From: the human T2T-CHM13v2.0 reference genome, Homo sapiens
DNA length: 64,000 bases
Assembly: GCF_009914755.1 (NCBI RefSeq)
Contig: NC_060928.1
Reading direction: 5' to 3' (one strand)
The stretch's first letter is position 1. Each line of letters opens with the position of its first letter. A program made the position numbers and the translations under genes. The notes under the pieces were generated by a model. It was not told the DNA's origin, did no database searches, and was given only the letters and a program-made list of their open reading frames with translations. Positions 62,446 to 63,192 of this stretch are shown one piece after another.

Positions 62446-63192
62446 TATACATCCCTGGCCTTGAGTGAAATGAAATGACCCAGGCCACAAGCGCATGACC
62501 AGTGGGACTGGAGGGTTCCTTGGTGCATTTGTCACCAAGGCCCGAATCTGGCTCTCTTAACAGAAAGGCAATTGACACCCATGGGCTCACTTAGCAAAAC
62601 AGCTGCTTCTAATGGGGATTGCAGACTTAAAGAAACTGAGATGCAGCCGGGCACAGTGGCTCATGCCTGTAATCCCAACACTTTGGGAAGCCAAGGCGGG
62701 CGGATCACCTGAGGTTGGGAGGTCGAGACCAGCCTGACCAACATGGAGAAATCCCATCTCTACTAAAAATATAAAATTAGCCAGGCGTGGCGGCATATGC
62801 CTGTAATCCCAGCTACTCGGGAGGCTGAGGCAGGAGAATGGCATGAACCTGGGAGGTGGAGGTTGCAGTGAGCTGAGATTGTGCCATTGCACTCCAGCCT
62901 GGGCAACAAGAGGGAAACTCCATCTCAAAAAAGAAACTAAGATTCATGAGCTGTGGACCAGGGAGCAGTGCAGGGAGTAGTAGCAAACCCTGTAAAAAAA
63001 AAAAATCTTAAATCACCCTTTCTTGTGCCCCTTTTAAGGTTGACACAGTGCATTAAGCAGAAGGGTTAAGTAAGTCTCCATAAAACCCAGAGAAGAGAAT
63101 GTAAAGCTCCTCTTTGGAGGAGCTAGACTCCTGTCTGGAGTCACAGCTGAACAAATTCCTTACAGTTTAAGCACATTTGTGATATTTTTGCA
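62446..63192 (+). repeat. Diverged copy of DANCR intron 2 (27855-~28312), split by an AluSp-like element (62645-62932)
   Basis: Collinear blocks: CCAGTGGGAC(C/T)GGAGGGTTCC, CCAAGG(T/C)CCGAATC(C/T)GGCTC, GGGCTCAC..CAAAACAGCTG, AACCCTGTAAAAA, the snoRNA, TTTGTGAT. Confidence 0.88.
63025..63148 (+). ncRNA. SNORA26 paralogue, probably a pseudogene
   Basis: Near-identical GTAAGTCTCCATAAAACCCAGAGAAGAG and TCCTGTCTGGAGTCACA; ACA at 63143-63145 retained; H box changed to TAAGTA; 9-nt deletion in the 5' hairpin; 10-nt insertion in the 3' hairpin. Confidence 0.85.

What the first reader, a model, noticed from the sequence alone, without database searches (positions are those of the whole stretch)
62446..63192. 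DANCR intron 2 is duplicated 35 kb away, just upstream of the HEMO provirus remnant
About 450 bp of DANCR intron 2 reappear in the same orientation, antisense to HEMO. The copy runs from essentially the 5' splice site (GTATGTTCCTAGCCTTGAG vs ATATACATCCCTGGCCTTGAG) to ~45 nt past the snoRNA. Because flanking intron is included, this is not a simple retrocopy of the mature snoRNA; I see no poly(A) tail or TSD. CpGs have decayed in the copy (GACCGG>GACTGG, GTCGCC>GTCACC, TCCGGC>TCTGGC; E-box lost), which marks it as the derived copy. It abuts a truncated ERVL LTR where the 5' half of the provirus should be, so it may record the rearrangement that removed gag and the 5' LTR. The alternative is reverse transcription of a debranched intron or pre-snoRNA.
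Basis: partly seen in the sequence, partly recalled or inferred. Interest (0 to 1): 0.7.

Follow-up and report, generated by a model that had tools for sequence, protein, structure and literature searches.

The report
HEMO's promoter was copied from DANCR
The promoter region of HEMO, a human placental gene taken from an ancient retrovirus, is a flipped copy of the start of the neighbouring gene DANCR that likely replaced the virus's own lost promoter, and the intron copy first spotted is likely the tail of that same copy, turned around by a later inversion.

Summary
Observation confirmed, and it is part of something larger. DANCR 27852-28313 recurs at 62446-63189 (82.5% over 423 columns, Alu skipped; no poly(A), no TSD). 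Just beyond the window, the CpG island holding HEMO's annotated 5' end (66314) is an inverted copy of DANCR ~27080-27990: promoter, exon 1, intron 1 (MIR4449-like hairpin), exon 2, start of intron 2, with 85% identity over 455 bp and splice sites intact. A ~3.3 kb segment (62438-65713) is inverted: it splits one LTR (8 of 9 other copies are contiguous) and reverses the pol remnant (6 of 6 relatives). Before that inversion the intron copy would have continued the promoter copy and lain within ~65-130 bp of where pol ends; gag, the RT 5' half and a second LTR were not found in 140 kb. Best reading: a DNA-level partial duplication of DANCR replaced the 5' half of the provirus and gave env a promoter and two leader exons. 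Exon use, causality and age (roughly 55-100 My; core possibly re-copied later) are inferred. Ten literature searches found no report; the 2017 HEMO paper was unreadable.

The parts
27080..27261 (+). Source: DANCR upstream promoter. Its inverted copy, with two CCAAT boxes, lies outside the window at 66730-66517 (minus strand; L009:6517-6730)
27262..27990 (+). Source: DANCR proximal promoter, exon 1 (27289-27422), intron 1, exon 2 (27719-27854), start of intron 2. Its inverted copy forms HEMO's CpG island outside the window at 66414-65710 (minus strand; L009:5710-6414): predicted HEMO exon 1 66314-66232 and exon 2 65958-65819
   Evidence: RefSeq 5' end 66314 and exon count 3 from the hub annotation
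27577..27642 (+). Source: MIR4449 hairpin. An unannotated paralog lies outside the window at 66101-66036 (minus strand), in sense within predicted HEMO intron 1
   Evidence: Rfam 67.8 bits, E 2.6e-10, below the gathering score of 71
27848..27974 (+). Source: exon-2 donor and first ~120 nt of intron 2. A third copy lies outside the window at 66509-66406 (minus strand), upstream of HEMO's annotated start
27852..28313 (+). Source of the finding: DANCR intron 2 with SNORA26 (28144-28265), up to ~75 nt before the 3' splice site
   Evidence: hub annotation
57442..60832 (-). HEMO (ERVMER34-1) env exon; its acceptor AG (60834-60833) lies in proviral sequence shared with related proviruses
   Evidence: hub annotation; acceptor region aligned to L029, L030, L032, AG kept in 2 of 3
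60833..61746 (-). 3' end of proviral pol (integrase region) in original orientation, with an Alu fragment
   Evidence: domain by collinearity with L027 (rve E 0.087, weak)
61800..62437 (+). 5' part of a solo LTR-like repeat inserted in pol, with an Alu at ~61836-62150; ends at inversion breakpoint 1. Its 3' part lies reversed outside the window at 65713-65540 (breakpoint 2; 4-nt overlap with the DANCR-derived intron)
62446..63189 (+). The finding: copy of DANCR intron 2 (about 27852-28313), starting ~8 nt from inversion breakpoint 1
62643..62943 (+). Alu inserted into the copy, 14-nt TSD with 1 mismatch
63026..63148 (+). SNORA26 copy (LOC124900185), likely a pseudogene: 9-nt deletion, 10-nt insertion, different predicted fold
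63190..63320 (.). Junction of unassigned origin between the DANCR copy and the 5'-most surviving proviral DNA; one relative suggests pol reaches ~63265
63320..64000 (+). Inverted proviral pol remnant (RT 3' of the YxDD motif, then RNase H and start of integrase), interrupted by three Alus; continues outside the window to 65540

Best explanation
The CpG island at HEMO's 5' end is an inverted copy of the DANCR promoter, exons 1-2 and the start of intron 2, and the segment 62438-65713 is inverted; the intron-2/SNORA26 copy is likely the tail of the same DNA-level duplication, which likely replaced the 5' half of the provirus and is predicted to give env its promoter and two leader exons. Inferred order: (1) the provirus integrates ~30 kb from DANCR; (2) an unrelated LTR lands in pol (order relative to step 3 unknown); (3) ~1.25 kb of DANCR (about 27080-28313) is copied in inverted orientation, and the 5' LTR, gag, protease and RT 5' half are lost, in one template-switch event or by a deletion soon after; (4) because the copy stops before DANCR's intron-2 acceptor, the exon-2 donor would splice to the proviral env acceptor, adding an ATG-free 223-nt leader; (5) a later inversion with breaks in the LTR and near the exon 2/intron 2 border flips the snoRNA tail and most of pol, leaving ~135 nt of intron 2 at both breakpoints; (6) a small local duplication makes the third donor copy, and Alus insert.
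For: Promoter paralogy: 27494-27943 vs 66184-65738, 85.5% over 455 bp, E 4e-147; the best non-self hit of 6 genome matches, and reciprocal. The block holds both introns and ~200 nt upstream of DANCR's annotated start (z up to 12), so it is a DNA copy. The exon-1 donor, exon-2 acceptor and exon-2 donor are intact at homologous places, with no ATG in either exon. An old spliced chr2 retrocopy joins exon 1 to exon 2 at exactly these borders and starts at DANCR ~27343, the equivalent of HEMO's annotated 5' end. Inversion: 8 of 9 distinct LTR copies aligned carry the two pieces contiguous and in opposite relative orientation to this locus; 11 of 11 adjacent pairs among the two 39-hit lists agree; 6 of 6 chosen proviral relatives show the same flip in pol. 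Truncation: 4 of 6 relatives stop matching at 63319-63330, just 3' of the RT YxDD motif where it could be located, yet relatives run on into RT-N and gag among themselves. None of that 5' DNA, and no second copy of the region 3' of env, was found from -30 kb to +110 kb. Direction: DANCR with snora26 is syntenic down to fish (PMC12694859), while HEMO dates to ~100 Mya (PMC8978518, PMC10604696). HEMO is reported to have lost its 5' LTR and to use 'a cellular CpG island' (PMC8978518).
Against: HEMO exon 1 and 2 coordinates were not seen; they are predicted from homology, the annotated 5' end and the exon count. Divergence is uneven. Non-CpG K2P to DANCR is 0.11-0.13 for intron 1/exon 2/intron-2 start, 0.29 upstream, 0.45 in exon 1 (48 of 179 vs 44 of 398 mismatches, p=4e-6) and 0.19-0.23 for the intron-2 copy's flanks, so one event needs rate differences or later re-copying. 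The intron-2 copy is further from the HEMO-intron copy (0.21) than DANCR is (0.125). 65-130 bp at the DANCR/pol junction have no assigned origin. Adjacency does not prove that one event did both things. No other mammal could be examined. Pfam support for the pol/gag map comes from relative L027, is below curated cut-offs, and 0 of 9 ORF fragments of this locus hit Pfam.
Confidence: 0.8

Rival explanations
1. Same anatomy, two rounds of copying. An old duplication left the upstream promoter, exon 1 and the SNORA26 tail; the core (about 27462-27990) was re-copied from DANCR much later (roughly Alu-S age), by gene conversion or by templated repair of the inversion break. This refines the best explanation and does not exclude it.
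For: Identity steps from 59-79% (27262-27461) to 80-94% (27462-28004). Distances in the intron-2 start fit a clock with the SNORA26-linked copy as the oldest branch. In exon 1 DANCR, HEMO and the chr2 retrocopy are star-like (13/13/11 private changes of 88); in exon 2 DANCR and HEMO pair up (9/6/30 of 136). It would also explain the duplicated breakpoint DNA and the 4-nt overlap with the LTR.
Against: The retrocopy's total change is the same in both exons (20 of 88 vs 31 of 136), which equally fits constraint on the core in both genes. Standard errors are 0.03-0.11.
Confidence: 0.4
2. The provirus lost its 5' half independently; the DANCR block arrived in a separate event and only happens to sit next to the break.
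For: 65-130 bp of unassigned DNA lie between the two; no junction microhomology could be read; the duplicate's flanks (K ~0.2) look somewhat younger than pol copies (0.27-0.43).
Against: A promoter could work from anywhere within several kb, yet the copy ends within ~130 bp of the break; the missing DNA is absent, not displaced.
Confidence: 0.2
3. The 62446-63189 piece is an independent RNA-mediated copy of a debranched intron or pre-snoRNA.
For: It starts at about the 5' splice site. A chr3 copy runs from inside the snoRNA to ~20 nt before the 3' splice site, so intron-extended copies of this RNA exist. It is more diverged than the promoter core.
Against: No poly(A) or TSD, whereas 5 of 6 other SNORA26 copies aligned end in A-rich tails soon after the ACA box. 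It begins ~8 nt from an independently shown inversion break, and allowing for that inversion it is collinear with a DNA copy of the same gene 2.5 kb away. It shares a 7-nt gap with both HEMO-side copies (polarity unknown).
Confidence: 0.05
4. The direction is reversed: DANCR's 5' end was copied from the HEMO locus.
For: In exon 2 HEMO shares a 3-nt stretch and several bases with the old chr2 retrocopy that human DANCR lacks.
Against: DANCR with its two intronic small RNAs is syntenic across vertebrates (PMC12694859); the HEMO-side block is fragmentary and its snoRNA is damaged. The shared states are explained by later changes in DANCR.
Confidence: 0.02

Closest known systems
HEMO / ERVMER34-1 and its 'cellular CpG island' promoter (Heidmann 2017, as summarised in PMC8978518)
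   Same: Same gene and same island: 5' LTR lost, env transcribed from a CpG-rich host promoter.
   Different: The passages read describe the island without an origin, and the main text does not contain the word DANCR. Here it is shown to be a paralog of DANCR's 5' end, with an internal inversion. The 2017 paper and its supplement could not be read.
Fv4-type co-opted env genes in 5'-truncated proviruses (PMC4306825: 'env and 3'LTR')
   Same: An env gene survives without its 5' LTR; use of a host promoter by Fv4 is recalled, not seen in the passages read.
   Different: Here the promoter is a duplicate of another gene's promoter and leader exons, placed at the truncation point, not a resident promoter.
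Chimeric new genes made by partial DNA duplication (promoter and 5' exon recruitment; general knowledge)
   Same: Local DNA-level copy of promoter plus 5' exons fused to an unrelated coding exon through splicing.
   Different: The donor is a snoRNA/miRNA-host lncRNA and the recipient a retroviral env; both intronic small-RNA genes were copied along.
L1-made H/ACA snoRNA retrogenes (PMC1802619)
   Same: A SNORA26-like sequence at a new place; some known retrogenes include intron or exon flanks.
   Different: No poly(A), no TSD, intron on both sides, and part of a promoter-containing block; most other SNORA26 copies aligned look like ordinary retrogenes.
Inversions flanked by inverted duplications, staggered-break model (PMC1885836)
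   Same: A unique ~135-nt sequence is present in inverted orientation at both breakpoints.
   Different: Only one breakpoint is duplicated (also seen in that paper); templated repair from DANCR is an equally possible source here.

Membership tests
SNORA26 H/ACA snoRNA (RF00568) | Covariance-model score above the gathering threshold | tested here: met
   77.9 bits vs 40
SNORA26 H/ACA snoRNA (RF00568) | Intact hairpin-hinge-hairpin fold with pseudouridylation pockets | tested here: not met
   9-nt deletion, 10-nt insertion, many broken pairs; predicted fold differs from the parent's
SNORA26 H/ACA snoRNA (RF00568) | Lies in sense within an intron of a transcribed host | tested here: not met
   now antisense to HEMO; no + strand host gene in the hub annotation
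SNORA26 H/ACA snoRNA (RF00568) | Expressed as a stable RNA | not testable with these tools
   no expression data
L1-mediated snoRNA retrogene | 3' poly(A) tail | tested here: not met
   longest A-run 5 nt, 90 nt downstream of the snoRNA
L1-mediated snoRNA retrogene | Target-site duplication | tested here: not met
   longest shared word between outer flanks 5 nt; age could have erased one
DNA-level partial gene duplication | Introns retained | tested here: met
   intron 1 and intron 2 present
DNA-level partial gene duplication | Sequence upstream of the transcription start retained | tested here: met
   homology to about 27080, ~200 nt upstream of 27289
Promoter-capture chimeric gene | Recipient's transcription start lies in the duplicated promoter | tested here: met
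   RefSeq 5' end 66314 (hub annotation) aligns to DANCR ~27341
Promoter-capture chimeric gene | Duplicated exons are spliced to the recipient's coding exon | tested here: inconclusive
   splice sites intact and RefSeq lists 3 exons, but exon coordinates and transcripts were not seen
Promoter-capture chimeric gene | Regulation inherited from the donor | not testable with these tools
   two CCAAT boxes, GC boxes, CACGCG and CACGTG shared; no expression or ChIP data
Inversion with breakpoint duplication | Older elements split, with halves in opposite orientation | tested here: met
   LTR 8 of 9 and 11 of 11; pol 6 of 6
Inversion with breakpoint duplication | Outgroup with the non-inverted arrangement | not testable with these tools
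   no related genome is held
mir-4449 (RF03917), HEMO intron-1 copy | Score above the gathering threshold | tested here: not met
   67.8 vs 71 bits, E 2.6e-10, full model length: a clear paralog, below the cut-off
   dispersed ~520-550 bp repeat with TG start, AATAAA-like signal and, in L013, a possible 5-nt TSD; no repeat library on hand

The most novel reading that the evidence does not exclude
HEMO became a gene because a duplicate of the DANCR 5' end replaced the proviral LTR-gag-RT half in one event, handing env a progenitor- and tumour-active, MYC-type CpG promoter and two leader exons. The young gene also hosted working copies of DANCR's two small RNAs; the SNORA26 copy stayed under selection (6 of 112 differences vs 50 of 267 in its flanks) until an inversion silenced it, and the MIR4449-like copy in intron 1 may still be made.
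Probability: 0.4. Interest if true: 0.85.

Novelty: new variant of a known kind. Interest (0 to 1): 0.74.

Why it matters
HEMO is described as the oldest intact retroviral env in humans and a tumour and placenta marker, and its non-LTR promoter has had no stated origin in the papers read. A DANCR origin explains how an env that lost its LTR stayed expressed. It predicts shared regulators with DANCR (reported MYC-induced and progenitor-expressed), and gives datable markers (duplication, inversion, core re-copy) to set against ORF retention in simians and cats. Practically, 85-90% identity over ~450 bp means guides, probes, primers and short reads aimed at the DANCR promoter or MIR4449 may also hit HEMO.

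Tried and rejected
My first guess that 63340-63620 was an L2 remnant (recalled resemblance) was wrong: it is inverted proviral pol. Pfam on 9 ORF fragments of this locus gave 0 hits, so domains were mapped through relative L027 (6 of 17 fragments hit, 5 of them retroviral families, all below curated cut-offs). The origin of 63190-63290 was sought in the window, its flanks and the proviral relatives: nothing; only 1 of 12 tests was significant (L032, z=3.5). A genome search with 62440-62645 found only itself and missed DANCR, so it is uninformative. DNA beyond the promoter copy (66700-67340) matched only itself, and no further DANCR-derived DNA was found from -30 kb to +110 kb. The region 3' of env did not match the six fetched relatives, so the 3' LTR was not delimited and the 'no second LTR' result rests on self-comparison only. 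Gene conversion versus constraint was tested with three retrocopies and stayed open. The chr2 retrocopy has no detectable third exon (z 1.3-1.4), so it cannot say which gene it came from beyond exon 1 being nearer DANCR (81% vs 67%). The 2017 HEMO paper is not held. Earlier scan findings were not available.

Full report
Coordinates are window coordinates; those above 64000 were read from L009 (G000:C4:56232001-56242000; window = 60000 + position). D = DANCR; S = the copy at 62446-63189; H = the copy at HEMO's 5' end.

1. Observation. Two collinear blocks join DANCR intron 2 to 62490-63189 (E 1.7e-21 and 1.2e-48), split by an Alu with a 14-nt TSD. Over 27852-28313 identity is 82.5% in 423 columns; both ends are significant and homology stops at ~63190. 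Rfam calls SNORA26 in both places (151.4 and 77.9 bits). One of 13 CpGs survives in S, against 32 of 53 in the H core. There is no poly(A) or TSD, while 5 of the 6 other SNORA26 copies aligned (6 of the 9 found elsewhere) end in A-rich tails after the ACA box.

2. The larger block. A genome search with intron 2 gave 13 matches, two of them inverted pieces just past the window. They belong to a copy of the DANCR 5' end: 27494-27943 vs 66184-65738 at 85.5% (E 4e-147), extending to about 27080 vs 66725. This is the CpG island (GC 0.65-0.71, CpG o/e 0.55-0.86) holding HEMO's annotated 5' end, 66314. Searches in both directions make D and H each other's best non-self match (6 and 5 matches). The exon-1 donor, exon-2 acceptor and exon-2 donor are intact in H, predicting exons 66314-66232 and 65958-65819 with no ATG. 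RefSeq lists three exons, one of them the env exon in the window; I did not see the coordinates of the other two. A chr2 retrocopy is spliced at exactly these borders and begins at the position equivalent to 66314. H also carries a MIR4449-like hairpin (67.8 bits, under the cut-off of 71), two CCAAT boxes, GC boxes and both E-box-like motifs. A third copy of the exon-2 donor and intron-2 start lies at 66509-66406 and shares an ~18-nt gap with H that S and D lack.

3. The inversion. The repeat left of S (62160-62437; 415 candidates, 40 scored) and a repeat piece at 65540-65713 (53 candidates, 40 scored) are two halves of one element. Eight of 9 distinct copies aligned have them contiguous, in the opposite relative orientation (L015 lacks the second half). 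All 11 adjacent pairs among the 39+39 non-self hits agree. Against L013 only ~6 nt are missing at the join. Six proviral relatives (5 picked from the 15 non-self hits, 1) all match within 60000-61746 one way and within 63319-65545 the other way. So an LTR inserted into pol, and 62438-65713 was later inverted. The first ~135 nt of intron 2 stand at both breakpoints, as in the staggered-break pattern of PMC1885836 (passages read). Before the inversion, S would have continued H in the same orientation, in sense within HEMO's second intron.

4. The truncation. Four of the 6 relatives stop matching at 63319-63330; L029 and L030 stop earlier. In L027 and L032 this is ~65-80 nt 3' of the RT YxDD motif. 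L027 carries RT, RNase H, integrase and gag fragments in order (weak Pfam hits), and L027, L028, L029 and L031 match each other well past that point. Their 5' parts have no proviral match from -30 kb to +110 kb; only dispersed repeats hit. The end of S lies 65-130 bp from this point, and the DNA between is unassigned. The DANCR-derived block therefore sits where the 5' LTR, gag, protease and RT 5' half were. It stops ~75 nt before DANCR's intron-2 acceptor, so its donor would next meet the env acceptor at 60833, which lies in sequence shared with related proviruses. That step is inferred.

5. Age and rates (non-CpG K2P). Alu in S vs four other Alus 0.10-0.14; LTR vs seven copies 0.22-0.30; pol vs relatives 0.27-0.43 (nine comparisons). 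D vs S flanks 0.19-0.23; D vs H core 0.11-0.13; upstream 0.29; exon 1 0.45. Taking ~100 My for the provirus (PMC8978518, PMC12704712; passages) the duplication falls roughly at 55-100 My and before the Alu; this is a rough internal scaling. The core is significantly closer than promoter and exon 1 (p=4e-6): constraint on both islands or later re-copying; three retrocopies did not decide it. The snoRNA body of S differs from D at 6 of 112 sites against 50 of 267 in the flanks (p=4.5e-4), with 3 private changes in 109, where about 10 are expected if S were neutral (Poisson p 0.007). S was thus probably constrained for part of its history, or was converted; its two indels and altered fold suggest it is now dead.

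6. Literature. Ten searches. [quoted passage not shown] PMC12694859: passages and one section (ERVMER34, duplicat*, paralog 0). Other papers were seen as listings only. No supplements were read. Heidmann 2017 is not held; it or its supplement could mention the homology, and genome-browser self-alignments may show it without comment.

7. Verdict. Shown: paralogy of HEMO's CpG island with the DANCR 5' end; the inversion; loss of the proviral 5' half next to the DANCR-derived DNA. Inferred: one original block (about 0.85), use of the copied exons (about 0.85), a causal link with the truncation (about 0.7), inherited regulation (untested). Promoter capture by partial duplication is a known route to new genes; a snoRNA-host lncRNA 5' end standing in for a proviral LTR was not found in the searches above. 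New variant of a known kind; interest 0.74.

Noticed in passing
L036:866-1086 (G000:C2:241919865-241920085): Old spliced retrocopy of DANCR-type exon 1 + exon 2, ending exactly at the exon-2 border and followed by unrelated DNA that resembles an L1 5' end (recalled). Its 5' end maps to DANCR ~27343, about 54 nt inside the annotated start.
   Followed up: partly
L034:997-1140 and L035:1053-1183: Two copies of the DANCR intron-1 element end about 8 nt after an ACA and run into A-rich tails, like H/ACA snoRNA retrocopies; both read AGAACA where DANCR and HEMO read AGAACG (could be CpG decay). This fits the proposal in PMC12694859 that MIR4449 derives from an H/ACA snoRNA.
   Followed up: partly
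L033 (G000:C3:53420582-53420786): SNORA26 copy that carries DANCR intron 2 on to ~28370, about 20 nt before the 3' splice site: possibly a retrocopy of a debranched, 3'-extended precursor.
   Followed up: partly
window 63105-63124: The insertion in the SNORA26 copy completes a perfect 8-bp hairpin, the pattern of a quasi-palindrome template switch.
   Followed up: no
L009:6406-6509, minus strand (66509-66406): The third donor copy keeps a perfect exon-2 donor upstream of the annotated start and begins within a few nt of where the SNORA26-linked copy begins; the shared breakpoint is unexplained. It could serve an upstream first exon.
   Followed up: partly
L009:5856-8461 (65856-68461 in the hub annotation): LOC107986281 starts on the + strand inside the duplicated exon 2, i.e. 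an antisense transcript of the copied CpG island.
   Followed up: no
window 28760-29075: LTR-like sequence with AATAAA at ~29014, just before the 29033 end of the short DANCR isoforms; likely supplies their poly(A) site (seen, not tested).
   Followed up: no
window 27175-27320 and L009:6330-6400: The DANCR promoter has a ~70-bp tandem unit (GC box, TCTTCCC, CCAAT); the HEMO copy has a ~32-bp tandem of the GC box/TCTTCCC part without the CCAAT.
   Followed up: no
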